Assembly (NCBI RefSeq): GCF_964204645.1
Contig: NC_134027.1
Location: 18,810,560-18,874,559, forward strand
Source: Tubulanus polymorphus
Taxonomy: Eukaryota; Animalia; Nemertea
DNA: 64,000 bases
Direction of reading: 5' to 3'
The stretch's first letter is position 1. Each line of letters begins with the position of its first letter. Positions 7,004 to 56,038 of the stretch are shown here, in pieces. The notes beneath the pieces are model-generated. The model worked only from the letters and a program-made list of their open reading frames with translations. It ran no database searches and was not told the DNA's origin. The translations under genes were made by a program, and so were the position numbers.

Positions 7004-7091
7004 TGGCTTTTTTCGAATTATGAATGGAAATGCATATGCCTACCTAAGTTTTTGGCAGAATTTCAGAGAATCCTTGCTCCAAGTAATCAAA

Positions 7092-8988: not shown

Positions 8989-9089
8989 TGGTCATTAAAT
9001 TTCTTTACAAACATGATTTCCTGAATTTTAAGGTTATTTTAGGGGCCTGTGGCATCAAAGCCAGAATTTTTGGGTATTTCTCCCCTAAA

Positions 9090-12793: not shown

Positions 12794-14083
12794 CACAGGG
12801 ACTTGTCACGACTGATAATGGATGAGACCAATGATGGGGGTACCAGTATCCCTGCAACTGTATAATAAAATAACAAGGGTGGCAACAAATTTTCAATCTG
12901 ACAATGACTTCTCCACTTCAATCGACTGTAATTCCAAAAATTCTCAACCGATTCACATGAAATAAGCTTTAATACAACCTAGAAGACTTTCTGCTTCGAA
13001 CGAGCCTACAACCACCATTCTAGGACAATTATCTCACAACGAAATCACCTTTTTTTGACGAGAGATAGCTCAAAATGGAGGTGTACCGATTCTATGGTGG
13101 ACAGCAAAATGGTCGTTTTTTTCAATTCAAACGATGATTTCTATGTGAGATCTTAGAGCCCCAACAAACCATACATTTTTTAAAACTACGCGGTCATACC
13201 TGTACGCTTATCTCATTTATTTGTATAATCCACGCGATGGGTGAGCTCACAAGCTCAAAATCGAAAATGAGGACGAACACGGCATTCAACTTGTCATCAA
13301 CTGGGCGGCCATTAATCACGTGATATCGTAGTAACGGGCTAAATATTTCACGCGCATTGATTGGCTTAGAGATTTCGAAAAACATTACAAAATTTATTAA
13401 AAGTTCTGTTAATTAATAAAATATCCGTATTATGAAAATATAGTGCAACATTCGTCTGAGGGGTGGTATTATTAGCAAATATTTCCTTTTTTCAAGTCTA
13501 TAGACGTAGACTTGTCGCGGTTCTATTAACATAGCCCGAACCTGCACGTCACGTGATTAATGGCCGCCAGCGCGATAGTGCGAGGTGACTTTTTCGTATA
13601 TTTGTTCGATTTTGAGCTTGCGAGCTCACCCATCGCGTGGCTTATACAAATAAATGAGATAAGCGTACAGGTATGACCGCGAAGTTTTAAAAAATGTATG
13701 GTTTGTTGGGGTTATCTCTAAGATTTCACATAGAAATCATCGTTTGAAGTGAAAAATACGACCATTTTGCTGTCCACCATAGAATCGGTACACCTCCAAT
13801 TTGAGCTATCTCTCGTCAAAAAACGGTGATTTCGTTGAGAGATAATTGTCCTAGAGTGGTGGTTAAAGGTTCGTTGGAAGCAGAAAGTCTTCTAGGTTGT
13901 ATTAAAGCTTATTTCATGTGAATCGGTTGAGAATTTTTGGAATTACAGTCGATTGAAGTGGAGAAGTCATTGTCAGATTGAAAATTTGTTGCCACCCTTG
14001 TTTTTTATATTATACAGGGATAGTGGACCTGGTCATTGATATTGGTTTTATTCATTCACTATCAATTGTGACAAGTCCCTGTG
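12794..14083. mobile_element. Foldback-type element with ~530-bp inverted arms
   Basis: Arms 12794-~13323 and ~13549-14083, termini CACAGGGACTTGTCAC / GTGACAAGTCCCTGTG, ~225 bp spacer; no TSD found. Confidence 0.85.
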
Positions 14084-17368: not shown

Positions 17369-18387
17369 TGTAGTTTAGGTTTGTATAATGGTCATATTTC
17401 TGACAGTTCTACTGCTCATGCTCAATCCAGGAAGAAAGACACTCTAAATATTTGGATGGATATATAAAAGCTGTGGGTACTGGAGTGTGTAATGGGTAGC
17501 GTAGTGTGATCTGTGTGCATTTGTGGCCAGCACACAGATCACATTGTTCAATGGGGTTTGATCCAGGACTCGCAACACGGAAGTAACGTGTAATAAATGA
17601 TGACTTGAATTGCATGACTACCTACCACCCCTCATTATTGTCGGAAAACTAAACGTTCGGCACTGACTAAAGATTAGTAATAACATTTTAGAAATGGCCA
17701 ATATTTTAACTTAGGTTCTATCTCATTTTTATTTTACAATTGCGATTGGTATAATTTTTTCTAAAACGGCCGTTAAGGCTTCATGTTTCGTCTGCAATTC
17801 ACTGCAAATAGTTACGCAACTACGCAAATTTCAGTGTTTTTGGCAGCTGTACACTCAATCGGCACCGTTCGTGACTAGCTTCACCGCGGAATTATCATTA
17901 ATTAACATCGCCATATCACATCATCAACTTATATTGTGCCTTAAAACCCTAACAGCCGTAATAATTGAAATGCACACACGATTTCTATCATTGAAAATTG
18001 AGAGAGTGGCTATGTTTGTGTTTGCTGCTTCGCGTAAATCCTGCGCGGTGGCGCAACCGCGCGGAGTGGGGCCGATACGTCTAGTGTATAATTGCTCATG
18101 TGTGAAATTGTATGAAATCTGCTGATCTGGTGATCTGTGTGTATTGAATTTGGCAGTTGGTGTACTGACGTTGTGGCTCTTACATGATTTTAATACTCTC
18201 AAATGTTCTGCAAGTTATTTGTTATTATTCGAATTTCTGGTTATTATTATAATATTTGTGTACTAATTTTGTGTTGTTTCTTGTCTTTAGAAACGGCATC
18301 GATGATAAATGATGGCAATAAATGTAAAGATGTCAGTTTAACATTGAGTGTTTTTCGACGTTCGCAAATTCGTGTTCGGAGTCTACA
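17369..18387. mobile_element. Solo LTR (~360 bp without its nested insert)
   Basis: TGTAG...CTACA termini; 5-bp TSD AGCTA at 17364-17368 and 18388-18392; removing it rejoins the LINE frame (LVDAA|TTAQLTQ). Confidence 0.88.
17427..18080 (+). mobile_element. ~660 bp TIR-less mobile element, copy 2
   Basis: Reverse complement of 7432-8097; CCAGG at the left end, CTAG at 18081-18084. Confidence 0.85.
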
Positions 18388-19177: not shown

Positions 19178-20529
19178 ATGGAAATACTGTCAAAATTAAA
19201 ATAGCATTTTTGATGCGTCAATCGACGCGTCAAACGACGCATCAAACGATGCGTCAAATTCTTATCTCATTTCATAATGCATTTGATAAAGATCTATATG
19301 GTCCAGATGGTTTGGGTTAAGGTTAGTTTGAGGGCTATGTGTAGGTAAAACATTCCACCTGTATTTGGCTGTCTCGAGCAGTATCACTGTGCTAGCGCTT
19401 GCAGGCCTGAGTTCGAATACTGTTCTTTTCTCTATGTTGTATTTTTTCTACAGATTTTTTGAGTCGAGGGATAAGTGTGGGATTCTAATCAGAGCAAATT
19501 ACTATGGACAAAATAGTGCCCATATATAACAGGAATAATGCCCCGTCGCTGATCCCTGTACCCAAAAACTGACCTGATCAGAATCAAGATGACCGCCTGC
19601 CGAAATCAGCAATTTTTACTCATTATTTTTCAATTTTCAAGGGAAATTTTGCAGCCATGCTTTGATTAATCAATCATTCTTATATTTGTATCTACCAAGT
19701 GCCCATCAGCTTATGAAATGGGTCTGTCGGACACAAGTCGGCTGTGTGTTACCTTTTTTGTTCCCAAAAAGGTCACCTTTTTTGTTCCCAAAAAGGTCGA
19801 CTGATTTTGGCTTCACCTTTTCGCTCTATACGAACCTTATCAGACACTACGTTTCGTGGTGTAATCCATGCAAGAATTCAGAGACCTTCATCCATTCCTT
19901 GCAAAGGTTTGATTCCCTACCGCTAACATAAACCCTTCAATGGTCAACCCTTCGATGGTCTAGTTATTGCCCAGGTTTCTTTAGACAGGTTGCTGCTACT
20001 AAGCGGCCACCAGTCTGTAATGTATATTATGTAACAATAACACATTGAATTGTAAAATCTGCCGCGAAACGAAGAGCTTTCGAAGCAGCGGCTGATCTAG
20101 GAACTGCGAGACCCGAGGGACCAGGGCCGCTTCCCCTCAAAGTTCCGAGCGTTTATCTCTTATTTCCCGAATACTGTCGAGCCCGGCTTGAGAGTTGTGT
20201 TGCAATAATCTACTCATTTCCTCTTGTATTAGTTCTAAAATGCAGGAAATTGCACAATTATGCACATCGAAATACATATCAGTCTGAAGATAACCCCCAG
20301 ATCCCCCACCCTCCGTTCGCGCCTAATACAAGACAGTCCCTAGAGATCCTCCCCTGCGAAGGACAGACAGAGCAACCAGAAGAGAAAAAAAACAATAGAT
20401 GCTTATAAAATGTATAATGAAATAAGATTAAATTTTGAATAAAGTGAATATGACGCGTCGTTTGACACGTCGTTTGACGCGTCGATTGACACGTCAAAAA
20501 TGCTTTTTTAATTTTGACAGTATTTCCAT
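19178..20529. mobile_element. Nested element bounded by ~80-bp inverted repeats
   Basis: ATGGAAATACTGTCAAAATTAAAA...(GACGCGTCAAAC)n at 19178-19260 and its reverse complement at 20445-20529; no TSD seen. Confidence 0.7.
20086..20356. mobile_element. Small MITE with 5-bp TSD
   Basis: Imperfect TIR CAGCGGCTGATCTAG / CTAGAGATCCTCCCCTG; CGAAG at 20081-20085 and 20357-20361. Confidence 0.55.
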
Positions 20530-22489: not shown

Positions 22490-24540
22490 GCCTATATTGA
22501 TTCAATTTCTACGAGTTCTGTTGTAAATCCATACGATTTCAGTTCGTTGCGTAGCTTTTATGTTTCTGTTAGAAATTCCCTCATCACATTGAAACAAATG
22601 AATTATATGTCAGAAATTTGGAGCAGTGATTTGTTATTTTAAGTTACTAGGCGTATCCCAGTTGATAAACGTTCTAAATGGAATGATTTTGTACGTCGAA
22701 TTTCTAGAACTACTTATCCCACTCTATTTGATTTCAAGATTCTGTCGAGGCAGATTTTGGACCATTCTCGTTGCAAAATAAACCTAGGAAATCTAGTAAT
22801 CCTGTGAATGTCGTTAATGGTCCACGGAGACCACATGTATTTAATTCCAGAGCATGAACCTATAAAATGTATCGTTTGTTCGGATAGCCATTCTTTGAAT
22901 AATTGCAAGGCTTATCAAGATAAGTCTGTCATTGATCGATTCACAATTGTGAAAAAAGTATCGTTTATGTATCAATTGTTTGAAAACAGGTCATTTTCTT
23001 GCTGCCTGTGCTTTGCTATACGGTGCAGAGAGGCAGCTTGCGGAAAATGCACCATACCGTGTTACATCTTCCGTCCTAGAGTAGTCAGATTCCAAATAGA
23101 TCCATGTTGAATATTCCGTCGTCTGATAAATCGCGTCAAAATTAGTCCTTAGAACGTGGTGATTCTGCAATTATCCAAAATGCAATTTCAACTGAAACTT
23201 ATTGTAACAATGTGTTTTTCAGGTGTTGCCGGTCACAGTTCAGGGAAAAAAAATGGACGTCGTATTGCCACACATGCTTTGTTAGACTTCGGTAGCGATG
23301 TTACCTTAATTCATGAAGATTTGGCTGATGAGCTTGGGTTACCAGGTGAAAAACAATTATTTACAACAAGTACCCTCAATTTTAGTGTTGCACGTATATC
23401 TAGGTGTGTTACTTTTGCCGTTCGTGGCAATGATCCAGATTCGAAAGATGTTAACATTTCGCGAGCCTAGACTACTCATAACAATATAAATTGTCCCGCT
23501 CAGACGTTTTCTGAGGTTTTTCTCAATAATCTATCACATTTGAATGGTTTGTCCTTTACGGACTATTCGCCTTGTCAGGTTAAGATTCTAATTGGTGCAA
23601 ATGTGCCTCAAGTGCACGTCCAATTAGAGGTTAGGGAAGGCACCTCCCAGCAGCCTGCAGCAATAAAAACCAGACTCGGTTGGTGTTTGTTTGGACTTTA
23701 GATTTTAGCGAGTTACCAATTGAACGTACTTTAGGAATTAAGTGGAATGCTCAACAGATTGATTGTTTCGTTTATAGACCGGCAATTAAACCTGTCACAC
23801 CTACCAAGCGAGGGATTTTAAGCGCTGTATGTTCTGTGTTTGATCCTTTGGGATTTTTATCTCCATTTACGCTAAAGGCTAAATGTTTGATTCAGAATAT
23901 GTGGCATTGTGGTTTAGGTTAGGATAAAAAGATATCCGGTGATCTTTTTGAAACTTGATGCGCGTGGGCAAGACGAGTTGCTATTATTATACGATTTGAG
24001 AATCGCTCGACATCATTTGTTCTTGTCGCCTTCTGCCGAAACGTAGCAGCTAAATCTGTTCTGTGATGCATCGGAACGAGCATTCGGCTGTGTTTGGTTA
24101 TTTGTGTTATAACACGGGTGAGCTTTTTTCCTGTTCATTTCTTGCTTCTAAAACGCATCTTGCTCCCGTTAAACATCCTTGAGATCCGTGATGTTGTTTA
24201 TTGGACCGATTCTCAGACTGTTATACGGTATATATACAATGAAAAGAAGCGTTTAAAGACATTTGTTGCGAATCGTGTGAGCAAAATTCGTGAAAATTCA
24301 TCACCTAAGCAGTGGAAGTACGTTTCTTCAAATTCAAATCCCGCTGATGATTGTGCCCGCGGACTTTCTGCGGCCACCTTAACATCATCTCATAGATGGT
24401 TCAATGGCCCAGAATTTCTGCAACTAGCTGAAACTAGTTGGTCACCTGAACCTAATGTTGGTTCTATATCTTATCTAGATGAACATATAAAAGTTGCAAC
24501 AACCGTGAATCGAACTTTAGGGTCTTTTGACTGTGAGGCC
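22490..24540 (+). pseudogene. Heavily decayed BEL/Pao gag-PR-RH fragment
   Basis: CIVCSDSH knuckle, protease ALLDFGSD, FDPLGFLSP, WTDSQ, NPADD; most of RT deleted near 23700; resembles the outer BEL at 44772-56869. Confidence 0.85.
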
Positions 24541-25144
24541 GCTATTGATCTCAACGATCTATATGGACGACTTCCTCAAATCAGTCAAGATAGTTCTTGA
24601 AGCCATAGGGATGTTGTCACAGGTCTCTTCTACAGTTACCGTTGGCGGTTTTCGGCTTACGAAATATTTCAGCAATAGCCGTGAAGTCCTTGCTGCGATG
24701 GCTCCATCTGATGTTGCCATTGATGTCCAGAAGTTACCCGACGGTCAATTACCTAAAGAGCGAGTGCTGGGCGTACTATGGGACGCTGAAAATGATGTTA
24801 TTGGTATAATAGTTCGTGTGTTCGATGCTGCGTTGACGCGACGAATTCTACTGCGATTGGTATCTTCGATTTTCGATCCATTTGGTATCGCCGCACCGTT
24901 TCTTCTCCAAGCCAAGATACTCATTCAACTATCTTGGACTCGAAAGCTTGATTGGGATGCTGACTTACCTGGAAGAAGATGTACGTGATTGGAAGTTATG
25001 GTTAGATGTTTTAAAGTCGTTACCAGATGTTCACATTGTCCGTTGCTACAAGCCAACGGAAGATGAACCCGGTCGCCGCGAACTTCACCTGTTTTGTAAT
25101 GCGTCTACAAAGGCCTTTGGTGCAGTCGCATACTTCCGTTTAGT
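24541..25144 (+). pseudogene. Second BEL/Pao fragment (RT C-terminus to RNase H), left part
   Basis: IYMDDFL, RVLGVLWD, FDPFG, LHLFCNAS; frame continues at 36067 once the Gypsy insertion is removed (AYFRLV|MPDGD). Confidence 0.88.
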
Positions 25145-25762
25145 TGTCACTAACGGGATCTTTGAATTCCACTTGAGTGATAGAATGTTAACAAGCGTCC
25201 ACGAATAAACGAGTCGCAACACACAGAGTTCCTGTCTTCAAAATTACTTTTATTTCACGAACTGATCTCAACGATCTAAAAATTCCTAGCGGTCTCCCCC
25301 ACGGTCCAAAAACCCCAGTATATATAGTCAATTCTCCAACCCATCTCATTAGCGAACGACATTGCCAAAGCCCGTTAATTTGTCGTTAGCGCAACAGCGT
25401 TGCCCATAAAAATATCATTATTCAACCGAAATAATTACAAAAGGACATTATACGTGACAGTTTCCCATAAAAATGTAACATTAACTTTGAATTATGTTCT
25501 TCAGCGGCAGTCGTTGCTCGCAAAAGCAAATACTTACGAGCAACTGACGCGCATTAGTCGTAATTTTCCTAAGGTTCAATCTCAGTACAAAAAGTTATAT
25601 GAAAGCTGACGCTGGAACAAAGTTCGAAAGTTTTATCACGAAAGATGGCACTGTTGAATGAGTTGGATAATGAATGCGGAATAGTTTATGATATCGTTAG
25701 AAGATGGCAGCACTGCCTATGAATTGAGACTGCTGTTGAAACTCAACAATACCACTGTCACA
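25145..25762 (-). repeat. Gypsy-env 3' LTR
   Basis: Minus strand TGTGACAG...GTGACA; TATATATA at ~25319-25326 and AATAAA at ~25249-25254 on the minus strand. Confidence 0.97.
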
Positions 25763-25766
25763 TATA

Positions 25767-25776
25767 CCCCCCTTCC
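25767..25776 (-). promoter_or_regulatory. Gypsy-env polypurine tract
   Basis: Minus strand GGAAGGGGGG-TATA just before the 3' LTR. Confidence 0.88.
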
Positions 25777-26920
25777 GCAAAGGCCCTGTCCTCAGGGACT
25801 AGAATTGGATAATACAAATACAAGTCAAATGTTAAGTAAAAAATGACATAAGGTCATCATGATATGAGACAGGAAAAAAATTTCCATTCATCGATACAAC
25901 TACAACACCATTATGTAAAACATTAACATCCGATAATAATGGTTGCTTGGATACAGAGTCATAAATCTTGACTAATGGCCCTTAAGAGTAGCAAAGCATC
26001 ATACCGGCGCGCAACGGCAGATACAGCATACGCCATGGATTACAAGCGACCAACACAACCGTACAAACGGTAAGTAATTATTTTCTTATACATTATACTT
26101 ATATGTTTAAAATGAACAATATCTATAAGAATATAAGATGAAATCCACAATCCATGTGCATAATATATAATAGTAGGTATCATTATACGAAAATAGGTGA
26201 ACACAGCACACTATACCAAGACATTAAACACATCACAAAGAATGTTTGTTTGTTTTTTTTTTTTAACACATATACGTTATACACCTACATCATTATATAT
26301 CGTAAATACCAATAACCATACATGATTATAAGAGACACTATCAATTAGATATCTAATACAAGCCATTAAATGTAAACATTACAGATATAACTTCATAATC
26401 ACTACCATATCACACGCACATCCTCAAACATCAATTTAATTCCATTACAATAATCACACTACAATTTACGTACATACGTAACTTTTAATCTAAAAGCAGC
26501 CTACATCAGAGTCACGTAAGAGGTTACTAGCACATTACGTGAAGGCCGAACGGGTCATCCGCACCCAGCCTCTCAAAACACTTCTGCACCGCAAGAGCTC
26601 TGATGCTGCCTAAACGCTCGCCTAGATAAATACAATATTCAACATATAATATCATTTCATATTCCACTACAATTTATTCACTCAAGTAAAATACGCAGGC
26701 CTGACCTACACTATTACAAACATACAATCGAAATCGAGTACTCATTGCGCCTCTTCATTATAATATGCCTCTTACTATGACAAATATATTTATTTATCAT
26801 CCTTTATAATCCATTTCATATCATCGTCTAATTATCGAAACAATACATATAGACATTATCGCCTATATCGAAATCATCCCCCCTCCCAAAAATGTACGGA
26901 ATGAACCTCTCTACAACATC

Positions 26921-29632
26921 TTAAGGTCTTGATAACAACGAGGGGTACAGTAAATTGATGCCCCTCTGGGGTACCAATGGATTCGGAACACTCGGTGGCG
27001 AAGGAACCCGCGGGGATATAGCCGGAATGTTTCTATTAGTGGCTGCTTCGTGAGCCGCAATCTCGGCCTCCCAATCAGAATCATTGTTTCTGCGGAGCCT
27101 TCCGAGGCACCGTTCCTTTTTCACGGCCGGATCCCTCAGGAAATCCGCAATGCCTTTGACTGGAATCCTCGCTCCATTAAATTCAATCCAAAAAAACTGG
27201 CAAAAATCCTCCGCTAGGATCCTCCTTACAGAACTAAATTTAAGCCAAGGAATTGTGACCTTCGAAGGCAAATCCATCACCTTCTGGCCATCCACTATAA
27301 CCTCACTGTACATCGAAAATCTAAGTAATAGCGAAAAAGGACCATACAACCCCACTATTTCTGGATCTGGCAACATAAGACAAGAATATTCTATCTCTGT
27401 CGGATGATATGGACAATCGCCCAACGGTATCATAATCGACTCATTAACATTACAGATCTCTAAATAAATAACACAATGTAAATCAGAACGGTCAACACTA
27501 CTCCACGGAGAGCAACATCTCAGGATCGCGCGAATCAACCGAACGATATCCATGATCAAGACCCGTAAGACTAGAAAGGAACCCAAAACAAATATAACTT
27601 CCAACATGGGAATATCTGAAAGGTCAAATCGTTCGGTCACTACTTTAACTAAAACCGTTTCGTTGGCACCCCTATCAAGAGAATCCAGCGTTAGTTCATA
27701 CGATTTATTTGAAACAACGGTAAATGCCTTCGCTAGAGGCATGGCAGATGCCACCGCCATCATCCCCAAAACCTTCCTGGTTTTAATGAAGATAAAAAAA
27801 CACAATAGCATGCTAGCCGAAGACAGAGCGATGGCCACTATATTTAAGACACCTGGTGTATCGGAAATTGTCCATTCGAAGTCTTCGCGAGACTCGTCTG
27901 ACTTAGCGGCCAAAGCATCCGCCTTCGATGCATACATAGCGGTGTCATTCTTAATGTGATATACCATCCGTTTAAAATCCAAAGAAAACTTCTTATCTTT
28001 ATCAACTAGACCGGACCAGTTAGCCATGTTTAACTTAAAATGAGGGAGTTCCGTTTTTATAGGATCTGTAACCGTAGTGCCCCCAAAAATATTATCTAGC
28101 TGTTCCCGGTTATAAATTTGTGATACCACCGGAAGATTCATGCTATAATATTTTACAGGTGCGACATCACCCGCACAAGCCGTAATTCGTGGGCTAAGTT
28201 CAAAAGTATTAGACGTTAATCGGCACTTGCACGGCACTGATAACAAACAAAACAAACAACTTTTAATTGCTTGGACTGGTTTCCCTGGACAGGTTAAATC
28301 CCATGTCGCTGGCTTTCCCGACATCAAGTATAAACTGTCTTTGACCTGCACTGCGCCTTCGAACAACGCAGACGTCGGCTCGTATCTGATATCACACAAT
28401 TGCGATACCAACTTAGGCTCGTCCCTATAAATCGCCAATGCACAACTGGGAATATTTCGCGACTTCATCGACATCGCAGTCGAACAAGATTTCAGATATT
28501 TTCCTGAGCAAGATGAATAGAATTTGGACGAAAGCTCAGTATAAAACTGGCCATCGTCAGTTATACCAAAATAATCAGGTAACCCAGTTAACAACGTACT
28601 GCGAGTCGACGAGGAATTGCAAGGTACAGGAAAAGCCATCACGTTGTATAAGCCGAAGAAGGCGTTGGTCGAGGATAATGGGATATTAATTGTTATATAC
28701 AAATTATTGTCTGTCTTAGTGAATACAATATCTTGGGCCTGATAATAAAACCCTAACTCGTTATGCTGGATGGTGAAACCAACAAATTTGGCCTGTAACT
28801 CCTCTCGCACGTGTTGCAAAACCCTTTTTAAATCTTTTGGGGATACAAACTTCATGGGTAGATAGCCCTCTAAAACAGTCTGAGTTGCCAAAAGCCATTG
28901 TTGTGTGGTACGTGTTAAATCTATCATGGACTGATAGTCAAACATTAATTGTTTGATAACTAGTAAAATTAATCTATTGTAATAATTTTGGTTTTGAAAA
29001 TTAGACGCAACATCTTTCGCCAACTGGTCCATATTTCTAGAGTTATTCTTTACCCCAGCGACGACGTTGGTTATGCGAGCATCCGCAGATGACATGTACG
29101 AAGTCAGGTCGTCTGAAATCGTTTTTATTTGTTTCGTATTTAGCTTAGCCATATTTTCCACGTCAGTGATGTGCTTCGAAAGCTTTGCGAGATCCTCATC
29201 GGTCGCTAAGCCAAAGAGGTTTTTCATGAACTTTCCCATAAACGGGGCTAAAGCTCTCTTCGGGCGTCTCGACTTGGTTATCTCGGCTTTAGTTATAGTT
29301 ACCGGAATGAGATCTTTAATCGTATTAATATCTTTGACTATCTGACCAACCAATTCATTATGGTGATCCCTCATAGATGACATCAAATTGGAACCGACCT
29401 TACACATTTCATCCCCGCCTTTATGAAAATCACAGTCCGGAATTACGGCCTTATATTTCGGCACTTGCAAAAAGGGGACTACAAAGGTGTGCTTCCACGC
29501 ACTCGCACCATTGTCCACCACACCGATTTTTTGAAGTAACACGCCATATCCTGGGCGTATTACGGTGTCGGTCGCTAACGATCCCTGGATAAGAATCATA
29601 ACTAGTGTGGTCCCTGAAAAAGTACAGGACAC
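26921..29632 (-). CDS. env: Envelope glycoprotein, F-type class I fusogen, with long C-terminal extension (903 aa)
   Basis: N-terminal signal-like segment; furin site RRPKR126 then ALAPFMGKFMKNLFGLATDEDL, matching the errantivirus-Env/baculovirus-F pattern R-x2-R-x6-G-x3-K-x3-G-x2-[D/T]-x2-D; heptad region; Cys-rich region; TM at about aa 594-616. Confidence 0.9.
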   Translation of the reverse strand: MSCTFSGTTLVMILIQGSLATDTVIRPGYGVLLQKIGVVDNGASAWKHTFVVPFLQVPKYKAVIPDCDFHKGGDEMCKVGSNLMSSMRDHHNELVGQIVKDINTIKDLIPVTITKAEITKSRRPKRALAPFMGKFMKNLFGLATDEDLAKLSKHITDVENMAKLNTKQIKTISDDLTSYMSSADARITNVVAGVKNNSRNMDQLAKDVASNFQNQNYYNRLILLVIKQLMFDYQSMIDLTRTTQQWLLATQTVLEGYLPMKFVSPKDLKRVLQHVREELQAKFVGFTIQHNELGFYYQAQDIVFTKTDNNLYITINIPLSSTNAFFGLYNVMAFPVPCNSSSTRSTLLTGLPDYFGITDDGQFYTELSSKFYSSCSGKYLKSCSTAMSMKSRNIPSCALAIYRDEPKLVSQLCDIRYEPTSALFEGAVQVKDSLYLMSGKPATWDLTCPGKPVQAIKSCLFCLLSVPCKCRLTSNTFELSPRITACAGDVAPVKYYSMNLPVVSQIYNREQLDNIFGGTTVTDPIKTELPHFKLNMANWSGLVDKDKKFSLDFKRMVYHIKNDTAMYASKADALAAKSDESREDFEWTISDTPGVLNIVAIALSSASMLLCFFIFIKTRKVLGMMAVASAMPLAKAFTVVSNKSYELTLDSLDRGANETVLVKVVTERFDLSDIPMLEVIFVLGSFLVLRVLIMDIVRLIRAILRCCSPWSSVDRSDLHCVIYLEICNVNESIMIPLGDCPYHPTEIEYSCLMLPDPEIVGLYGPFSLLLRFSMYSEVIVDGQKVMDLPSKVTIPWLKFSSVRRILAEDFCQFFWIEFNGARIPVKGIADFLRDPAVKKERCLGRLRRNNDSDWEAEIAAHEAATNRNIPAISPRVPSPPSVPNPLVPQRGINLLYPSLLSRP

Positions 29633-29663
29633 ATGATGAGTACAACGTGCTTAGAAATTGGAA

Positions 29664-32600
29664 CTACTTCCGTCGTTTGTCCTTTCCTTGCTTCCGAAAT
29701 ATCTCCAAGGGCGTTTTATCAATAAAACTATCTTCGAATTCCCATGTGCAATCCTTCATGCCATAACCCTTCCATTTGACTAGAAATTGTTCATTGCCCC
29801 CTTTGTTAAAACGCGATTTCAAGATCTTTTCTACCGTATAGATATCATCTTCATCTTCCAAATTATCCCCGGAATCATCAGAATCGGATTGACCCCTCTC
29901 ATCCGCTTCGGGGTCAGGTAACGATTCGTTCTTATCTGATGGTAAATCGACTGGTCTGTCCCTTGGGTCTACGTATAACTTCATTCGATTACAGTGAACT
30001 ATTTTCGGAATATCATTACTCTTTCTCGTATGAACGAGTTTATAATTCACTGGCGAAGTCTGCTGTAATATCTTATAAGGTCCCAAATAGTGGTGCACGA
30101 ATTTCTTACAATGTCCTTTCGGGACGAAAGGGTTGTAAAGCCAAACTAATTGACCGACTTGAAAATCCGGTTCCTTACTACCCCGATCATAATAGCCTTT
30201 CATACGCGCTTGCGCTTTTTCGATATTCTGTCTAGCTATCTCATGAACGACCTTGATCTTGCTCACAACATTATCATAATATTCTTTATAGGAACCTGTC
30301 AAATCGGGTGTAGTAGAGAGCAAGGTCACATCGATCGGCAAAACTGCCTTCCTGCCATAAATCAATTCAAACGGCGAATATCCAGTGGATTCGCAAATAG
30401 ACGCGTTATGAGCAAACGTGATGCTTGGAAGGAAATCTGGCCAATCTCTATGATGTTTATCCGTATATTGAGACAGACTGTTGCAAATATTTTTGTTGCC
30501 TCGCTCAACTAAACCATCCGCTTGGGGATGATATGCAGACGTTCTGATTTTAGACGCGTTGCATAATTTGCATAATTCGTGTATCAATTTCGCGTTGAAA
30601 TTCGCACCTTGATCTGTTAATAAAGTTTTAAAACACGAATGTACGCAAACTATTTTATCAAATATGACTCGAGCGATTGTGATAGCGTCGATTTCTTTTA
30701 ATGCAAATGTGTGTGTCCATTTGGTTAAATATTCAGTACACACTAATATATACTGGTACCCTTCGTATGATTTCTTCAAGGGCCCTAATATATCCATAGC
30801 TATTCTATCAAACGGTCCACCTACTTTGATGGGAATCAATGGCGCTTTAGCTGATTTTGGAGGTTTCTTCCTCGTAGCACAATCTTCACAACTTTTAACC
30901 CAATAATCTATGTCTTTATACATACTATTCCAAAAGTATCTCTGTCTCGCTTTATGCAAGGTACGTGAAATGCCAAAATGCCCACTCAGTGTATCGTCGT
31001 GTAGCGCATAAAGTATTTCTGATCTTAATGGTTTCGGAATTACTAATTGATGACAGACGTTCGCCCCATTTACCCATAAATGATGCAGAACACCGTTTTC
31101 ATCCAGATAGTAATCTGGACTAGATATAACGATCTTTCTAGCATATTTATCGACCTCTGGTAGTTCTTCCTTTAATAAATAATTAATCATCGGACGCAAA
31201 TCATCATCTTCCATTTGCATCTGTAAAAGTTCCTCTGGTTGTAAGGTTATATTCTCATCTATAGTGCCCTTAGGGTCTACCCCATCTCTTTGAGGTATCT
31301 CCTCATTACCACCATCAGTATCATGTTCCTGAGTATTAGGAATATTTTTAGGAGTCTCTAAAGCATAGAGACCACTAGTTCCTAGTTGTAGGTTCATTCC
31401 GTTCATTCCATTGCGTGTATTATATTTCCCCTGTACATTTTCATTAATCCCTATTTCAGTTTCATTTATCTCTTCTTCATTTTTATTTATCCCCATGGGG
31501 TACAAGGTGTCTGTGTCACGTCCAGCGTTGACCACAGCCTTGCAATCATTTTCATTGGAGCTATTACTCCTTAATATATCCTCAGCGCTTAATTCATTAT
31601 TATTATTAGTTATCATTACGCGTGCGTCATCGCGCGCGTTATAGGCATCAGGAGGCGATTCAAAAGATAAGGAAAAACCCTTATTGTTAATATCAATAAT
31701 ATCATCTACACATCCACACTGAAAATCACAAGTACAAGTTTTACAATCATTTGTTTTTTCATTCATTTTACCACCAATTTCAATTTGAAACGGATATCCA
31801 TCCTCGTTACTACCAATAATTGTTGGGATTGAATATACCGGTCTCGACAAAGCGTCTGCATTTAAATGTTTCTTCCCCGCTCTATGAACAATATCAAAAT
31901 CATACTGAGACAATTTCATTGCCCAGCGAGCTAAACGACCGTTCGGATCTTTCATAGTCATTAGCCATTTCAAGGCACTATGATCCGTAACTACTTCAAA
32001 TTTCTGGCCATACAAATAGGGCTCGTATTTCTTTACACCATAAACTACCGCTAAACATTCTTTCTCACTGACAGTATAGTTTTGTTCGGCTTTATTGAAT
32101 AATCGAGTCCCATAGCATATAACTCGCTCTGGGTCTTTTCCTTGAGAAAGAACGAATCCAACGCTATAATTGCTAGCGTCAGTGTATAATATGAATTTTT
32201 CATTGAAATTTGGATATGCTAAGACTGGAGCTGTAGTCAAAATTTGTTTGCATTTTTCGAATGCCTGTTGACATTCCTCGGTCCAATTAAAAGGTTTACC
32301 CTTCTGAGTTAAAGCCGTGAGAGGTCTGATTATTTCGGAGAAACCCTTCACAAAAGCCCGATAATAGGACACAAGCCCAACAAAACTACGTATCTGTTTA
32401 ACTGTTTTAGGGGCTTTGTAGTTGACAACAGCCGAAATTTTTTCGGGGTCAACCTTAACACCTTCCGGTGTAACAATATGACCTAAGAATTTCAATTCTT
32501 TCTTCCCAAATTCGCATTTTCTAGACTTCAGCCTTAAGCCAGCCTGTCTAAGTCTTTCGAAAATTTGCCTTAAGTTATCCAAATGATTTTGCCAACTGGA

Positions 32601-34211
32601 GCCAAAACATATTATGTCATCTAAATATACAAGACATATATCGTACGTTAGTCTGTGTAAAACCCTTGACATTAATCTAGAAAATACTGCAGGGCTAATA
32701 CTACATCCCATAGGTAGAACAGTATACCGATATAAACCACGCGGTGTTATGAAACTAGTATAATCCCGACTCTGAGGATCAATTTCGATCTGATGAAAAC
32801 CCGAGAAAAGATCTAAACTGCTATAAATAACCGGCTTTTTCTGACCTAACTTACTCAACAATGAATCAATTAATGGAAGTGGATAATGATCTTTACGCAT
32901 TCGAGAATTCAAGGCTCTAAAATCTACAACGAACCGATATGTAGAGTCCTTCTTCTTAACCAGAATACAAGGACTACTCCATTCGGACGATGATTCTTCA
33001 ATCAATTTCATTTCCATCATGTCGTCTAATTGTTTTTCTAATTCCGTTTCTAAAACAGGAGCCAATCGATAGGGTCGTGATTTAATTGGTGGCCCTTCAA
33101 TTTCAATTTTTGGTGTAATTAGATTTGTACGGCCAATTTCTCGAATATTATTAGCAAAAACGTCCCTGAATTCCATGCATAAATTCATTAACTCAATTTT
33201 CTGTACATCAGTTAAATCTGAATCTTCTAAATCGATATCAGGACTACCCGGTAATTCATCAGCGGATAAAAACGGTTTAGCGGTCTGTTTAATTTCCAAA
33301 CCATTCACTGTTACAATTTGATTCGACGAATCTACTTTCGATTCCCCATTATTTCCGCTACATATATCAAAAGCAGGTTTTCCTTTATCACCAAATTGTG
33401 GCAAGAAAAATGCTAATTTTTGATCCGAATGAATAATTATATCATCATCAGTGCAATTCAACACGAGCATCGGTACTGTATTAGCCGTTACTGTGCATAA
33501 TGATTTACCAACCAATAATTGATCATGGTATTTGTGCAATAAACCAGGATATCCCTCTATCATTCCAGTGGTTCCGTCTGGAAGTGATTCACATAATTTA
33601 ACCGGTAGAATAACTTGTGATAATTTTGGAATAGATAAATCAGTCATTACTTTCAATTTTACAGCACCACACATATTATGGATTCCGTTTATAGCAACCG
33701 AAGTCTCACCCTTTATGAAAATTCGTTTGTCTTCAAAACTAATCAAAACTTTATATTTTTCCAGAAAATCTACACCTAAGATAATATCTTGAACCAATCC
33801 TGGAACCACATAGAATTCGTGAGAAAATGGTTTCCCGGAGACCTCGATCGTTAATTCTACAATACCGGCCAAGCGAAATGAATCACCCTTGACAGTGTGC
33901 GCATTTGCATATTTTCCTGGAATTAGCGAAGGCTTTTCATTCAATGAATCATACAGTGATTGGCTAATACAACTAACACACGCGCCAGTATCAACAAGGA
34001 AACTGGTGGAATTACCATGAATCTTTCCAGGAACTGCTAATGCAACAGTTGCTAAAATTGGAATAGAATTAATAGTCTGATCGTTTGTACTGGAAGTAAA
34101 GCCTGGAAATATTTCGTTCTTTATCAGTTTACTCTTACCACAATGAGATGGGGATTTAATTTCTAATGGCTCGGAATCATCCCCTAAAATCCGGGCCTGG
34201 GGTTGTTTCCC
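29664..34211 (-). CDS. pol: Pol polyprotein PR-RT-RNaseH-IN-chromodomain, reached by -1 frameshift
   Basis: Frame is open upstream of the ORF-track start and includes protease FLVDTGA (~33990); RT YLDD; RH TDAS; IN H-H-C-C, DILGP, TDQG, VER, GPY; C-terminal YTVEKIL...FLVKWKGY...TWE. Confidence 0.96.
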   Translation of the reverse strand, partial: GKQPQARILGDDSEPLEIKSPSHCGKSKLIKNEIFPGFTSSTNDQTINSIPILATVALAVPGKIHGNSTSFLVDTGACVSCISQSLYDSLNEKPSLIPGKYANAHTVKGDSFRLAGIVELTIEVSGKPFSHEFYVVPGLVQDIILGVDFLEKYKVLISFEDKRIFIKGETSVAINGIHNMCGAVKLKVMTDLSIPKLSQVILPVKLCESLPDGTTGMIEGYPGLLHKYHDQLLVGKSLCTVTANTVPMLVLNCTDDDIIIHSDQKLAFFLPQFGDKGKPAFDICSGNNGESKVDSSNQIVTVNGLEIKQTAKPFLSADELPGSPDIDLEDSDLTDVQKIELMNLCMEFRDVFANNIREIGRTNLITPKIEIEGPPIKSRPYRLAPVLETELEKQLDDMMEMKLIEESSSEWSSPCILVKKKDSTYRFVVDFRALNSRMRKDHYPLPLIDSLLSKLGQKKPVIYSSLDLFSGFHQIEIDPQSRDYTSFITPRGLYRYTVLPMGCSISPAVFSRLMSRVLHRLTYDICLVYLDDIICFGSSWQNHLDNLRQIFERLRQAGLRLKSRKCEFGKKELKFLGHIVTPEGVKVDPEKISAVVNYKAPKTVKQIRSFVGLVSYYRAFVKGFSEIIRPLTALTQKGKPFNWTEECQQAFEKCKQILTTAPVLAYPNFNEKFILYTDASNYSVGFVLSQGKDPERVICYGTRLFNKAEQNYTVSEKECLAVVYGVKKYEPYLYGQKFEVVTDHSALKWLMTMKDPNGRLARWAMKLSQYDFDIVHRAGKKHLNADALSRPVYSIPTIIGSNEDGYPFQIEIGGKMNEKTNDCKTCTCDFQCGCVDDIIDINNKGFSLSFESPPDAYNARDDARVMITNNNNELSAEDILRSNSSNENDCKAVVNAGRDTDTLYPMGINKNEEEINETEIGINENVQGKYNTRNGMNGMNLQLGTSGLYALETPKNIPNTQEHDTDGGNEEIPQRDGVDPKGTIDENITLQPEELLQMQMEDDDLRPMINYLLKEELPEVDKYARKIVISSPDYYLDENGVLHHLWVNGANVCHQLVIPKPLRSEILYALHDDTLSGHFGISRTLHKARQRYFWNSMYKDIDYWVKSCEDCATRKKPPKSAKAPLIPIKVGGPFDRIAMDILGPLKKSYEGYQYILVCTEYLTKWTHTFALKEIDAITIARVIFDKIVCVHSCFKTLLTDQGANFNAKLIHELCKLCNASKIRTSAYHPQADGLVERGNKNICNSLSQYTDKHHRDWPDFLPSITFAHNASICESTGYSPFELIYGRKAVLPIDVTLLSTTPDLTGSYKEYYDNVVSKIKVVHEIARQNIEKAQARMKGYYDRGSKEPDFQVGQLVWLYNPFVPKGHCKKFVHHYLGPYKILQQTSPVNYKLVHTRKSNDIPKIVHCNRMKLYVDPRDRPVDLPSDKNESLPDPEADERGQSDSDDSGDNLEDEDDIYTVEKILKSRFNKGGNEQFLVKWKGYGMKDCTWEFEDSFIDKTPLEIFRKQGKDKRRK

Positions 34212-35149
34212 GGCCTGAATCTATTAGGATTGTCGTTGGAACGATTACCGAAATTATTGTTAGAATTATTAAACCGTCTATCCGGCCGATAACTACCGTT
34301 CTGCCTAAAACAATTACGTTCGTGATGCCCAACTCGATTGCATCTACCACAAACTACAGATCCGGAAGCAGATCTGAAATTTCGTGGCGGCAGGTTATTA
34401 TCCTGCCTCCGGACCTGTACCTGAAGTCTCGAGACTTCCCGGCTCAAATTCCTGATTTCATCCCTGAGATCCGAAATTTCATTTCGGTTCTCAGTGGATG
34501 ATATGATGCCGGCAATTGGAGGCGGTTTCGCCTGCAGCGCCAACACGGATTCATACAAGCGCGCGTATTGTTCGGCTTCGTCCATAGTTGTTGGTGATCT
34601 AGATACGACAAACGCTCTCAAATTGTCCGCCAAGCCATTGATAAATAGGACCATTAAATCATGATCGTTCTTTTCAAGAGCCGCCGAACGTATTTGGATG
34701 TCTTGAAGATAGACGTCCAACGATTCCCCCGGTAATTGTTTTCTGTTCATTAAACTTTGCTCACGCACCCATTTCATTGATCCAGAATCGAATTTCTTTT
34801 TGAATTCCCTTTCAAAGTTGTCAATATCTGATAAGATACTATTCGCCGTTGTCTTAACGGTTGCGTCTTTTGACTTGCTTGCCTCGACCACGGTCCAATA
34901 CCAAGCCGAAGCAAGTCCATCTAAAAACAGCCCCACTGCTTTAAGTTTCTTTTCGTTGGTCCAGCCCATGAAAGTAGAATATTGGGTGAACCGCCGCCAC
35001 CAAATATTAGCGTCTTCGCTTACCGTACCGGTAAACTGTGGCGGTTGTAGACGAGTCATGCCCATTGGCTTATCGTCAATTTTGGCTGTCATTTCAGCTA
35101 GTCTATCTGCCAATGCGCGGTCCATTCCAGACCTCGTTTCGACCGGCAT
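34184..35149 (-). CDS. gag: Gag (capsid plus one CCHC knuckle), about 321 aa
   Basis: First ATG at 35149 (MPVETRS); PPQFTG capsid start; MHR-like KQLPGESLDVY; CGRCNRVGHHERNC. Confidence 0.93.
   Translation of the reverse strand: MPVETRSGMDRALADRLAEMTAKIDDKPMGMTRLQPPQFTGTVSEDANIWWRRFTQYSTFMGWTNEKKLKAVGLFLDGLASAWYWTVVEASKSKDATVKTTANSILSDIDNFEREFKKKFDSGSMKWVREQSLMNRKQLPGESLDVYLQDIQIRSAALEKNDHDLMVLFINGLADNLRAFVVSRSPTTMDEAEQYARLYESVLALQAKPPPIAGIISSTENRNEISDLRDEIRNLSREVSRLQVQVRRQDNNLPPRNFRSASGSVVCGRCNRVGHHERNCFRQNGSYRPDRRFNNSNNNFGNRSNDNPNRFRPGNNPRPGF
34205..34211 (-). promoter_or_regulatory. -1 ribosomal frameshift slippery site G GGA AAC
   Basis: XXXYYYZ heptamer in the gag frame inside the ~36-nt gag/pol overlap; pol is in the -1 frame; GC stem starts 7 nt downstream. 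Confidence 0.88.
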
Positions 35150-35420
35150 ACACAAATTCAATCAAATAATTTCTAGGTTCTTCAATATTAAGTCAATTAA
35201 ATGTACGATAGACCGAAGGAGACAGCAAAATATTCGGTCTATCCACAGAAAATTGTTCTACGCACACGACGAAATCAAAATTAAATAACAAGTATTGTTC
35301 AATATTTACCAAAATCCATTTTCCGTGCGTTTTCTCGAGTTCCTACTTCCTGTGTTGTTCCAGCGAATTATCTTTGTTTCCGTTGGTTTGTTAAATAGCT
35401 CGATACCTCACTCAAGTAAA

Positions 35421-35442
35421 ATGCCCGCCAGGTTCTCCACCA
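35421..35442 (-). promoter_or_regulatory. Primer-binding site, tRNA-Ala(AGC)-like, bulged
   Basis: Minus strand TGGTGGAGAA-CCTG-GCGGGCAT versus the recalled tRNA-Ala complement TGGTGGAGAA-T-GCGGGCAT; 2 nt after the LTR. Confidence 0.75.
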
Positions 35443-35444
35443 TT

Positions 35445-36062
35445 TGTCACTAACGGGATCTTTGAATTCCACTTGAGTGATAGAATGTTAACAAGCGTCC
35501 ACGAATAAACGAGTCGCAACACACAGAGTTCCTGTCTTCAAAATTACTTTTATTTCACGAACTGATCTCAACGATCTAAAAATTCCTAGCGGTCTCCCCC
35601 ACGGTCCAAAAACCCCAGTATATATAGTCAATTCTCCAACCCATCTCATTAGCGAACGACATTGCCAAAGCCCGTTAATTTGTCGTTAGCGCAACAGCGT
35701 TGCCCATAAAAATATCATTATTCAACCGAAATAATTACAAAAGGACATTATACGTGACAGTTTCCCATAAAAATGTAACATTAACTTTGAATTATGTTCT
35801 TCAGCGGCAGTCGTTGCTCGCAAAAGCAAATACTTACGAGCAACTGACGCGCATTAGTCGTAATTTTCCTAAGGTTCAATCTCAGTACAAAAAGTTATAT
35901 GAAAGCTGACGCTGGAACAAAGTTCGAAAGTTTTATCACGAAAGATGGCACTGTTGAATGAGTTGGATAATGAATGCGGAATAGTTTATGATATCGTTAG
36001 AAGATGGCAGCACTGCCTATGAATTGAGACTGCTGTTGAAACTCAACAATACCACTGTCACA
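35445..36062 (-). repeat. Gypsy-env 5' LTR
   Basis: Identical by eye to 25145-25762, offset exactly 10300. Confidence 0.97.
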
Positions 36063-36066
36063 TAGT

Positions 36067-36920
36067 AATGCCCGACGGTGATCTACACTGCAGTTTCGTG
36101 ATGAGTAAAACCCATGTAGCTACATTAAAGATGATGTCAATTGTCCGATTCGAACTTCAAGCTGCTGTCCTCGCTGTTCGTTTGGCTGAAGCTACCAAAA
36201 AAGAAGTTACATGTCGAATCGACGAAACTGTCAACTGGATCGATAGCAAGGTCGTCTTAGGCTACATAATGCATGAGAGCAGGCGTTATCATGTCTTTGT
36301 TGCTGTGAGAATATCCGAGATCCACGACGCAACTACACCTGATCAATGGCGCAACATACCGGGCTGCGAGAACTCTCTGCAGAAGATTGCTCAAGAGGTG
36401 TTTCGGCTGCTAAGTTAACAACGGATTGTACTTGGCTGACTGGTCCAAGTTTTCTATGGAACTCCGTCGAATCATGGCCTGAAGACATTCCGACAGAAGA
36501 GCTCGTCAGCGTTGATGACCCTGAAGTAAAGAAGAACGTTTGTCTTATATCCGTTAGACGTGCTGTACTGCCAGATCCATCCAAGAAGTCGTCCTGGGTC
36601 GAGTATATACGAATTACAGCATGGATGCTTCGCTTTATCAACAACTTCGTTTCTACACACCGAAAGGTTAAGTTGGAAGTTTGTCGTGATGGTCCGTTAT
36701 CTGCTAGAGAATTCAACGAGGCTGAATTGTTGATTTTAAGTACCCGGTACTGATAAGCGACAGAAGTTCCCTATGGAGTATGCTGCCTTGAAGTCTGCAA
36801 AAAACTACCGTCGTCAAGCAAGCTGCTGCAACTAGGTAGATCCGGAATCAGATGCATCAGGTGTGATGAGAGCTCGTGGCAGGCTGATGAACGCAAATAT
36901 ACTGCGTGCACTACGGATCT
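36067..36920 (+). pseudogene. Second BEL/Pao fragment, right part (RNase H and linker)
   Basis: VMSKTHVA...RFELQAAVL, WIDSKVVL, QWRNIPG, WLTGPSFL, RITAWMLRF. Confidence 0.88.
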
Positions 36921-38174: not shown

Positions 38175-39032
38175 CACCAGGCAGTCGCCGATGGGCTTGG
38201 GATACAGTTGCTGGGGTTTTTGATAGTGTATTTGTGTTTTCATTCGTTATTCTGCAATAAATCCGAGAAAAAACGTCTTGGTACTGATACGTTTAGAAAG
38301 ATAATGGCCGCTGGATCCACACACGGCGACCTCACAAAATACTGAACAAACTTCGTTTTTCAATCTAAAATCAAAACTTTTATTTTATATGACACTTACT
38401 AGTGATATGACAGTTATATATCCTATTATTCCATCCGACTGTGAGACACTATCAATTTGTGAAACGTCTTTAGTAATATAAAAGAAAAGGTAGTTGACGA
38501 AGCGTGAGCGTATAGGAAAAACTTTACAGGCGTTGAGACGGCAACACTAGGTCACACGGGCACCTGCTACAAGTATTCCCCTTCTATATTCAAATAAAGC
38601 GGGATTTCGTTATGACGTCACTCAGCGGTTGAACGACGTTCGGTGACTAGTTAGTTGCCGTCTCAACGCCTGTAAAGTTTTTCCTATACGCTCACGCTTC
38701 GTCAACTACCTTTTCTTTTATATTACTAAAGACGTTTCACAAATTGATAGTGTCTCACAGTCGGATGGAATAATAGGATATATAACTGTCATATCACTAG
38801 TAAGTGTCATATAAAATAAAAGTTTTAATTTTAGATTGAAAAACGAAGTTGGTTAGTGTTTTGTGAGGTCGCCGTGTGTGTGTGGAGCCAGCGGCCATTA
38901 TCTTTTTAAACGTATCAGTACCACCAAGACATTTCTTCTCGGATTTATTGCAAAATAACCACTCAAAACACAGATACACTATCAAAAACCCCAGCAACTG
39001 TATCCCAAGCCCATCGGCGAGTGCCTGTGGTG
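38175..39032. mobile_element. Foldback element with ~370-bp inverted arms
   Basis: 38178-38545 is the near-perfect reverse complement of 38652-39028; ~105 bp spacer. Confidence 0.88.
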
Positions 39033-44771: not shown

Positions 44772-45286
44772 AACGAACAAACAACCCACGTTTGGTTAAC
44801 GGACTTGTTTTTAATTTTAAGCGTCGATAATCGAAAAGTCGTTGACTACAAATTACAAAAAAAACAGCAATAATAAGTATTTCATTACAAAATAGTTACA
44901 TTACTAGACAAGTAACGACAAGTGCATATTTATGGCAAATTATAACGCATTAAACTTACTAATAAACTAGACCAAATTTTAGGCCAAACTACGCCAAATA
45001 CCAAGTAAATGAAATGGCACATAAAGCTTACATTTACATCATGAAAGTTAGATTTCATCATACAGAAATGAGATATATAACACATTTTTGCGAAACTTAC
45101 AACTATATCCGCTGTTACCAGTAAAATGAGTACTTCTCGTCTACCGACCTAAGTGTGTACTACCACAAAACTGTGCGTAAGGCACGGAGTAAATTCAGTA
45201 ATAAATCGATAATAGAGGATTAAACTCGACACCCGAATGCAAAATTCACAAACCCCAGCGACACAAAACCCACCGGTCTGGAAACA
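44772..45286 (-). repeat. Outer BEL 3' LTR
   Basis: Starts TGTTTCCAGACC on the minus strand directly after the PPT. Confidence 0.88.
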
Positions 45287-45538
45287 GCGCCCCCTTGACA
45301 TCTCAAACTTCAAAAGATTAATTTTTGTGTACACACAGACCGCAATTAAGTTGCAGTTATAAACTAGAATAATATTTTACATCATACGAATGCTATAAAC
45401 CATCGTTCAATATCGACAAATCGAGAAAATCACGCTTTAACACTACGTATTTTAGTTTTCACGACCTTAATTTAACTAGCAGCAAGATAACACACAAATA
45501 TTTACATTACCACTAGATATAATCACAACTCTGACTCC

Positions 45539-50735: not shown

Positions 50736-51013
50736 TGGGTTGACGGACTTGTATTCCCTCGGTTCCTGACGAAAGCAACTCAACAAACACACGTTCGAAC
50801 TATATGGCATTTCCATTTATTACTCCCCAAAATCTCAAATTCACATGATATGATATGTAACCATGAAACTAGTACAGTGAAGATTATATATAGCTGACGC
50901 GACACGTGACAACTTGTATTCATAAGATATTCACGATACAACATGGACATAATACATCAATACTAACAGTACTGTATTTGAGTTTAACAAATCAAGTATA
51001 TTTACAAACAGTT

Positions 51014-55938: not shown

Positions 55939-56038
55939 GTTGACAAATTTCAATTTTCTGAATTCTTCGAATTTGTTGAATTAACTCTTCGTCTTCTTCT
56001 AACGTTTAACGATTAACTGGTAGCATTTCTCACTTCTC

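What the first reader, a model, noticed from the sequence alone, without database searches (positions are those of the whole stretch)
29720..29840. Chromodomain with intact aromatic cage on the integrase of an env-bearing element
Seen: YTVEKILKSRFNKGGNEQFLVKWKGYGMKDCTWEFEDSF keeps the Y/W/Y positions of the HP1-type methyl-lysine cage and follows a GPY motif and an acidic linker. Known: chromodomain integrases typify chromoviruses, which lack env, and classic insect errantiviruses lack chromodomains. Inference: an unusual combination that may steer integration to H3K9me chromatin, consistent with landing inside a dead BEL in a gene-free TE nest.
Basis: partly seen in the sequence, partly recalled or inferred. 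Interest (0 to 1): 0.7.

Follow-up and report, generated by a model that had tools for sequence, protein, structure and literature searches.

The report
Histone-reader-tipped enveloped retrotransposon, known type
This is a young, intact virus-like jumping gene of a mollusc/annelid-type animal whose integrase ends in a real chromodomain that likely reads methylated histones and may bias where new copies land; the pairing with an envelope gene is already published and is the rule among its relatives in this genome.

Summary
An intact Ty3/gypsy element (identical 618-bp LTRs, 4-bp target duplication, gag-pol-env with F-type env) ends its integrase in a canonical chromodomain: Pfam Chromo E=5e-13, cage Y1461/W1483/Y1486, model about 1 Å from solved chromodomains. 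It splits a dead BEL gene.

The claim of novelty fails. Chary & Hayashi (eLife 2026, PMC13524379) report chromodomain-bearing errantiviruses; by my count 28 of 139 rows of their table, and all six I looked up carry F-type env. Hox genes point to a lophotrochozoan host, inside their range.

Targeting stays open. Young copies avoid gene-rich regions (9 of 11 versus 37% random), but chromodomain-less gypsy elements do too (16 of 24; all chromodomain elements 25 of 31, p=0.35). The clasp residues are hydrophobic (CDYL2/Polycomb-like), so H3K9-only specificity is not supported. Sister lineages here have lost the cage, a natural control. No earlier scan note held this combination.

The parts
29685..29840 (-). 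Chromodomain at the C-terminus of integrase (pol residues 1461 to about 1512); cage Y1461 (29838-29840), W1483 (29772-29774), Y1486 (29763-29765); clasp I1460/I1500; Phe1495 where Pro is usual
29664..34220 (-). pol, 1518 open codons: protease, dUTPase-like segment, RT, RNase H, integrase (zinc finger, core, GPY/F-SH3), acidic linker, chromodomain, basic tail
29979..31040 (-). Integrase zinc finger, core and GPY-containing C-terminal domain
   Evidence: PF17921, PF00665, PF22938, PF24626
33411..33656 (-). Degenerate dUTPase-like segment between protease and RT
   Evidence: E=0.0015, below cut-off; E=2e-4 to a solved dUTPase
26921..29650 (-). env, F-type fusion protein, 909 open codons; RPKR furin-type site at residue 129, two hydrophobic stretches near 598 and 677, no full signal peptide in this frame
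29614..29625 (-). Candidate splice acceptor (pyrimidine run plus AG) at the start of env; inferred, no RNA evidence
   Evidence: sequence
34184..35149 (-). gag (capsid, CCHC knuckle)
34205..34211 (-). Candidate -1 slippery heptamer GGGAAAC in the gag/pol overlap; inferred, motif class recalled
   Evidence: sequence
35445..36062 (-). 5' LTR, 618 bp, TG...CA
25145..25762 (-). 3' LTR, 618 bp, identical to the 5' LTR
35422..35442 (-). Primer-binding site starting TGG, 2 nt after the 5' LTR; tRNA-Ala-like by recall, matching tRNA gene not found
25767..25776 (-). Polypurine tract
25141..25144 (-). Target-site duplication ACTA (3' copy)
36063..36066 (-). Target-site duplication ACTA (5' copy)
24521..25140 (+). 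Frameshifted BEL/Pao element, left part of the interrupted Peptidase_A17 domain
36067..36418 (+). BEL/Pao element, right part of the interrupted Peptidase_A17 domain

Best explanation
This is a recently inserted, intact F-type-env Ty3/gypsy element of the published chromodomain-bearing 'ancient errantivirus' kind, and its integrase chromodomain likely binds methylated H3 tails (K9, possibly K27 too) and would tether integration to silent, gene-poor chromatin. Shown: structure, domains, cage residues, recent multi-copy spread, and gene-poor location of copies. Inferred: gag-pol by -1 frameshift, env from a spliced RNA, methyl-lysine binding, and tethering. My odds by step: identity about 0.92, methyl-histone binding about 0.75, a real effect on where copies land about 0.5.
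For: Three open frames between identical LTRs with TSD, PBS and PPT. RT-RNase H is closest to Ty3 among solved structures, E=2e-85. A second copy on C8 is 99.3% identical with pol and env of the same length; young LTRs at 11 independent sites, 9 of them with a readable 4-bp TSD. Full cage and canonical fold. A full Y-or-F/W/Y-or-F cage in seven divergent env-bearing families of this genome (window, L074, L078, L081, L083, L118 group, L132 group), which suggests the cage is kept by selection. MAGGY's group I chromodomain binds H3K9me2/3 and was proposed to target heterochromatin (PMC3350952, passages; the primary paper was not held). 9 of 11 family sites have no marker gene within 1 Mb against 37% of random points, p=0.003; chromodomain elements 25 of 31 against young BEL 18 of 37, p=0.011 at 1 Mb.
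Against: Chromodomain elements are not significantly more gene-avoiding than chromodomain-less gypsy elements (25 of 31 versus 16 of 24, p=0.35; p=0.28 and 0.59 at 0.5 and 2 Mb), and the contrast with BEL is not significant at 0.5 or 2 Mb (p=0.069, 0.33). By a second measure, broken-BEL cores, there is no difference at all (19 of 32, 11 of 24, 18 of 37). Flank repeat content is only weakly above evenly spaced control sites (0.37 versus 0.17, p=0.042; p=0.084 without the window's own site). Sister env-bearing lineages with long open pol frames have lost cage residues (L124, L125), so the cage is dispensable for some. This domain has Phe where Pro is usual and Asp-Ser-Phe for Glu-Asn-Leu. In Tf1 the chromodomain restrains integrase activity and sharpens substrate specificity (PMC3350952). 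No binding or chromatin data exist here.
Confidence: 0.6

Rival explanations
1. Same element, but the gene-poor location comes from selection against insertions near genes, not from the chromodomain; the domain binds methyl-lysine for another purpose (integrase activity, nuclear retention, cDNA binding) or hardly matters.
For: Chromodomain-less gypsy elements are also depleted near genes (16 of 24, p=0.003 versus random) and do not differ from chromodomain elements. Cage-less sister lineages sit in the same cores, 3 of 3. Tf1 and MAGGY chromodomains affect integrase activity and transposition efficiency.
Against: The cage is kept in seven divergent families. One young BEL family of identical score is spread over gene-rich arms, so young insertions there can persist.
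Confidence: 0.3
2. It is a chromovirus that recently captured an env gene.
For: Group I chromodomain after a GPY motif; the published chromodomain clade sits basal to chromoviruses.
Against: All env-bearing loci fall in one RT clade of this genome's elements (SH 0.79) with homologous env at 25-40% identity to this one, which points to an old association. The PBS is tRNA-type and not Met-like by recall, whereas chromoviruses use tRNA-Met or self-priming (PMC6317226).
Confidence: 0.06
3. The chromodomain was captured recently from a host CDYL/CBX/HP1 gene and is peculiar to this family.
For: Best solved-structure hits are CDYL/CDYL2, about 40% identity by fold search.
Against: Its best matches in the genome stretches examined are chromodomains of other gypsy integrases (E 2e-13 to 2e-9), ahead of host-like loci (E 5e-5 or weaker). 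The domain or its remnant runs through the whole clade.
Confidence: 0.03

Closest known systems
Chromodomain-bearing 'ancient errantiviruses' with F-type env (Chary & Hayashi, eLife 2026, PMC13524379), e.g. Gmag_4, Mvir_1, Ofus_3, Llon_3, Dlin_6, Pfla_1
   Same: LTR-gag-pol-env order, F-type env (all six rows ENV_F), chromodomain after integrase, lophotrochozoan hosts, multi-copy and intact; Gmag_4 has an Ala-type PBS.
   Different: The paper's main text has no occurrence of 'aromatic', 'H3K9', 'heterochromatin', 'integration site', 'splic' or 'dUTPase', so cage state and targeting were not examined there. Exact clade placement and whether this very family is in their tables were not determined.
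Chromoviruses with group I chromodomains (MAGGY, Tcn1, Sushi)
   Same: GPY/F integrase followed by a chromodomain with all three cage aromatics.
   Different: They lack env; they prime with tRNA-Met or by self-priming. This element has env and another tRNA-type PBS.
Insect errantiviruses (gypsy, ZAM, Idefix)
   Same: Three ORFs, baculovirus-F-related env, short TSD; spliced env recalled for these and only inferred here.
   Different: No insect row of the published chromodomain table is positive; they carry a pseudo-RNase H in the bridge region, which was not tested here.
CDYL/CDYL2 and Polycomb CBX chromodomains
   Same: Cage positions, fold (rmsd about 1-1.6 Å) and hydrophobic clasp.
   Different: Host chromatin readers, not integrase domains; Pro-to-Phe and other changes before the helix.

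Membership tests
Ancient errantivirus (env-bearing Ty3/gypsy) | Ty3/gypsy pol order PR-RT-RH-IN | tested here: met
Ancient errantivirus (env-bearing Ty3/gypsy) | Intact gag, pol and env between LTRs | tested here: met
Ancient errantivirus (env-bearing Ty3/gypsy) | F-type or gB-type env | tested here: met
   Baculo_F E=4.6e-15; solved fusion protein 9w4c E=2e-5
Ancient errantivirus (env-bearing Ty3/gypsy) | RNase H plus 'mini' domain in the bridge region | not tested
   defined in PMC13524379 section 7; no fold of this region was run
Chromodomain clade of errantiviruses (Cnidaria/Mollusca/Annelida) | Chromodomain C-terminal to integrase | tested here: met
Chromodomain clade of errantiviruses (Cnidaria/Mollusca/Annelida) | RT placement with the published members | not testable with these tools
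   published sequences not available as tool inputs; my tree holds only this genome's elements and unnamed homologues
Chromodomain clade of errantiviruses (Cnidaria/Mollusca/Annelida) | Host within the reported range | tested here: inconclusive
   Hox cluster with Lox5-, Lox4-, Lox2- and Post2-like genes indicates a lophotrochozoan (labels recalled); phylum not resolved
Chromovirus | Integrase chromodomain | tested here: met
Chromovirus | No env gene | tested here: not met
Chromovirus | tRNA-Met or self-priming | tested here: inconclusive
   tRNA-type PBS starting TGG, Ala-like by recall; no matching tRNA gene in 5 of 15 pattern loci scanned
Chromovirus | RT in the chromovirus branch | not testable with these tools
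   no reference elements on hand
Group I (canonical) chromodomain | Three cage aromatics (HP1 Y24/W45/Y48) | tested here: met
   Y1461/W1483/Y1486
Group I (canonical) chromodomain | Three-stranded sheet plus C-terminal helix | tested here: met
   predicted model
H3K9me-selective readers (CBX1/3/5, CDY1) | Charged or polar clasp pair | tested here: not met
   Ile1460/Ile1500 align with CDYL2 L6/L46; the HP1 chain 9baq_B also has a hydrophobic pair, so the clasp is a guide only
Group I (canonical) chromodomain | Binds methylated H3K9 or H3K27 | not testable with these tools
   needs a binding assay

The most novel reading that the evidence does not exclude
Enveloped retroelements of invertebrates use a built-in histone-mark reader with a CDYL/Polycomb-type clasp to aim integration at H3K9me and H3K27me3 chromatin, and the cage-intact and cage-lost sister lineages living in this one genome differ in where they land.
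Probability: 0.4. Interest if true: 0.55.

Novelty: new member of a known kind. Interest (0 to 1): 0.27.

Why it matters
As an architecture it is ordinary since 2026. What is still open is function: my searches and the key paper turned up no test of methyl-histone binding or targeting for an animal env-bearing gypsy chromodomain. If targeting is real, a potentially cell-to-cell mobile retroelement limits harm to its host by reading silent-chromatin marks. This genome holds young cage-intact, cage-shifted, cage-lost and chromodomain-less gypsy families side by side, which makes the question testable without touching the elements themselves.

Tried and rejected
Chance or artefact: rejected (a second near-identical copy; reads of another sample, X5, cover all 30 bins). 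Expression: no RNA holder listed and run X7 laid nothing; no evidence either way. Host by mitochondrial code: no COX1 in the assembly. PBS tRNA: first pattern found nothing; second found 15 sites, and ARAGORN found no tRNA in the 5 that are not family copies. Splicing as origin of the two internally deleted copies: rejected, the junctions show short shared sequence and no GT-AG. Placement against chromoviruses: no references, so the tree (FastTree, 92 RT-RNase H sequences, loci with under 330 aligned residues left out) only shows the env clade within this genome. Gao et al. 2008 was not held; it is cited through PMC3350952 and PMC6317226. A complex prediction with histone H3 was not sent: methyl-lysine cannot be modelled and a pass would only echo solved structures. 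The first flank test was inflated by two sites that are one insertion in a segmental duplication; it was redone without them. The L121 env hit lies upstream of that locus's integrase and belongs to a neighbour, so it was dropped from the count.

Full report
Observation. The flagged peptide is real and lies at the end of a 1518-codon pol frame on the minus strand. Pfam gives protease, RT, RNase H, integrase zinc finger, core and C-terminal domain, and Chromo at residues 1461-1501 with E=5.3e-13. Against solved structures the last 68 residues hit 67 chromodomain sequences, led by CDYL, CDYL2 and an HP1. Y1461, W1483 and Y1486 align with CDYL2 Y7, W29 and Y32, the cage named in bioRxiv 10.1101/820647 (passages). 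An AlphaFold model from an 8-row alignment has mean pLDDT 83.7 and matches CBX, CDY, Chp1 and HP1 chromodomains at about 1-1.6 Å.

The element. It spans 25145-36062 between two identical 618-bp LTRs, with a 4-bp target duplication ACTA, a tRNA-type primer site and a polypurine tract. gag overlaps pol in the -1 frame across a GGGAAAC heptamer (inferred frameshift site). ORF3 has 909 open codons, matches Baculo_F (E=4.6e-15) and a solved fusion protein (E=2e-5), and has an RPKR site and two hydrophobic stretches. It starts with a pyrimidine run and AG rather than a full signal peptide, which suggests a spliced env RNA (inferred; no RNA data). The element splits the Peptidase_A17 domain of a frameshifted BEL.

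The family. An LTR search gave 49 matches from 40 of 45 candidates scored. Those at 96% identity or more mark 12 places: the window, a 99.3% identical full-length copy on C8, two internally deleted copies, two 5' fragments that are one insertion inside a segmental duplication, and six solo or partial LTRs; 11 independent sites. Nine have a readable 4-bp TSD. Raw reads of another sample under the same species label cover the whole stretch laid and show one of the deletion junctions in 8 reads. The family was active recently.

Host. A Hox cluster on C6 holds Lox5-, Lox4-, Lox2- and Post2-like genes (labels recalled), so the host is a lophotrochozoan. I went no further.

Prior art. [quoted passage not shown] I count 28 of 139 rows of their table as positive, including a nemertean, a hemichordate and a rotifer; the six I looked up are all ENV_F. 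The main text never mentions the cage, H3K9, heterochromatin or integration sites.

How common it is here. The genome has 148 Chromo matches among the best 150 of 939 candidates. Of the top 30, 22 have a gypsy integrase just upstream and 17 of these have env just downstream. Among 49 element loci examined, 18 had an env hit; one belongs to a neighbour; 16 of the other 17 have a chromodomain at E<=0.01 (five of them are in or identical to the profile's training set), and the last, L152, shows a remnant by eye. In an RT-RNase H tree all env-bearing loci fall in one clade (SH 0.79) with chromodomain-bearing metagenome proteins. Seven divergent env families keep the full cage; one group (L117, L149, L150) has the third aromatic shifted by one; L124, L125 and L152 have lost cage residues.

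Specificity. The CDY paper ties H3K9me3 selectivity to a charged or polar clasp (CBX1/3/5, CDY1) and broader K9/K27 binding to a hydrophobic clasp (CDYL2 L6/L46, Polycomb CBX). Here the pair is Ile/Ile. One HP1 chain also has a hydrophobic pair, so this only weakens the H3K9-only claim.

Targeting test. I used 194 hand-thinned kinase and homeobox positions (from 143 and 115 hits) as a gene map of the 12 large contigs. With no marker gene within 1 Mb: random 37%; this family 9 of 11 (p=0.003); all chromodomain elements 25 of 31; long-frame gypsy without a detected chromodomain 16 of 24; long-frame BEL 18 of 37. Chromodomain versus chromodomain-less gypsy: p=0.35 (0.28 and 0.59 at the other radii). 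Versus BEL: p=0.011 at 1 Mb, 0.069 and 0.33 at 0.5 and 2 Mb. A second measure, cores defined by 73 broken BEL hits, showed no difference between groups. Flank repeat content at 10 sites was 0.37 against 0.17 at 40 evenly spaced controls (p=0.042; 0.084 without the window's site), and one more copy, on C6, also sits in retrotransposon coding sequence. Limits: sets are the best-scoring 150 of 529 BEL and of 771 integrase candidates; copies of one family are not independent; BEL was assumed to lack chromodomains; L128 was counted as chromodomain-less but has a remnant; three weak-domain loci, one tandem duplicate and unplaced contigs were left out; selection was not separated from targeting. The trend fits targeting and does not show it.

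Mechanism. Most likely the mature integrase carries a methyl-lysine reader on an acidic flexible linker, as described for MAGGY (PMC3350952 and PMC6317226, passages), which would tether the integration complex to methylated H3 and bias insertion to silent chromatin. The main rival is that selection alone explains the distribution and the domain tunes integrase activity, as in Tf1.

Verdict. A correct observation and a clean new member of a published kind; interest is modest and rests on the untested targeting question. Two look-ups of earlier scan notes found none with this combination; one note on another genome names the same paper, which I had already found.

Noticed in passing
window 33411-33656 (-); L077, L080, P0004, P0005, P0012, P0016: A degenerate dUTPase-like segment lies between protease and RT (Pfam E=0.0015; solved dUTPase E=2e-4); the catalytic Asp motif looks absent, and homologous segments occur in related gypsy elements. 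The eLife paper's main text does not mention dUTPase.
   Followed up: partly
L061 (C6) and L062 (C3): Two independent internally deleted copies keep gag-PR-RT-RNase H and lack integrase, chromodomain and env; different breakpoints with short shared sequence, own TSDs, LTR pairs 100% and 99.8% identical; the L062 junction also appears in run X5. Possibly non-autonomous copies moved in trans.
   Followed up: partly
L124, L125, L128, L147, L152; P0006, P0011: One RT subclade (SH 0.89) carries chromodomain remnants with cage residues lost, several still with env and long open pol frames.
   Followed up: partly
L080, L014-L016: A chromodomain-bearing gypsy family inside the env clade has no F-type env but a short hydrophobic-looking third frame of about 190 codons behind pol.
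   Followed up: no
L115, L116, L119, L131, L138-L144: Chromodomain-less gypsy families carry a third ORF of about 160-590 codons right behind integrase that does not match F-type env.
   Followed up: no
L021-L026: A multi-copy repeat with a near-identical chromodomain in a short 74-codon frame and no gypsy integrase upstream; element type unknown.
   Followed up: no
L210-L213 (C8, 2.65 and 4.21 Mb): A segmental duplication of at least 20 kb at 99.7-99.8% identity holds a 5'-only fragment of this family; may be real or an assembly duplicate.
   Followed up: partly
window 6442-11070: Degenerate tandem repeats of a roughly 154-bp unit with higher-order spacing.
   Followed up: no
window 7428-8097 and 17427-18084: Long inverted repeats (97-98%) about 9.5 kb apart, probably the ends of a DNA transposon; shorter MITE-like inverted pairs at 12868-14006, 19178-20529 and 38178-39027.
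   Followed up: no
window 7-6308, 44965-56871, 60000-64000: Further BEL/Pao elements, one nested in another, and a GC-rich frameshifted gypsy at the right end.
   Followed up: partly
G000 BEL hits of 174 bits: One young BEL family with about 1812-codon frames is spread over gene-rich arms, unlike most LTR elements here.
   Followed up: partly
G000:C6 5.32-5.63 Mb (L087-L092, L097, L100, L107, L110): Compact, ordered ten-gene Hox cluster on one strand.
   Followed up: partly
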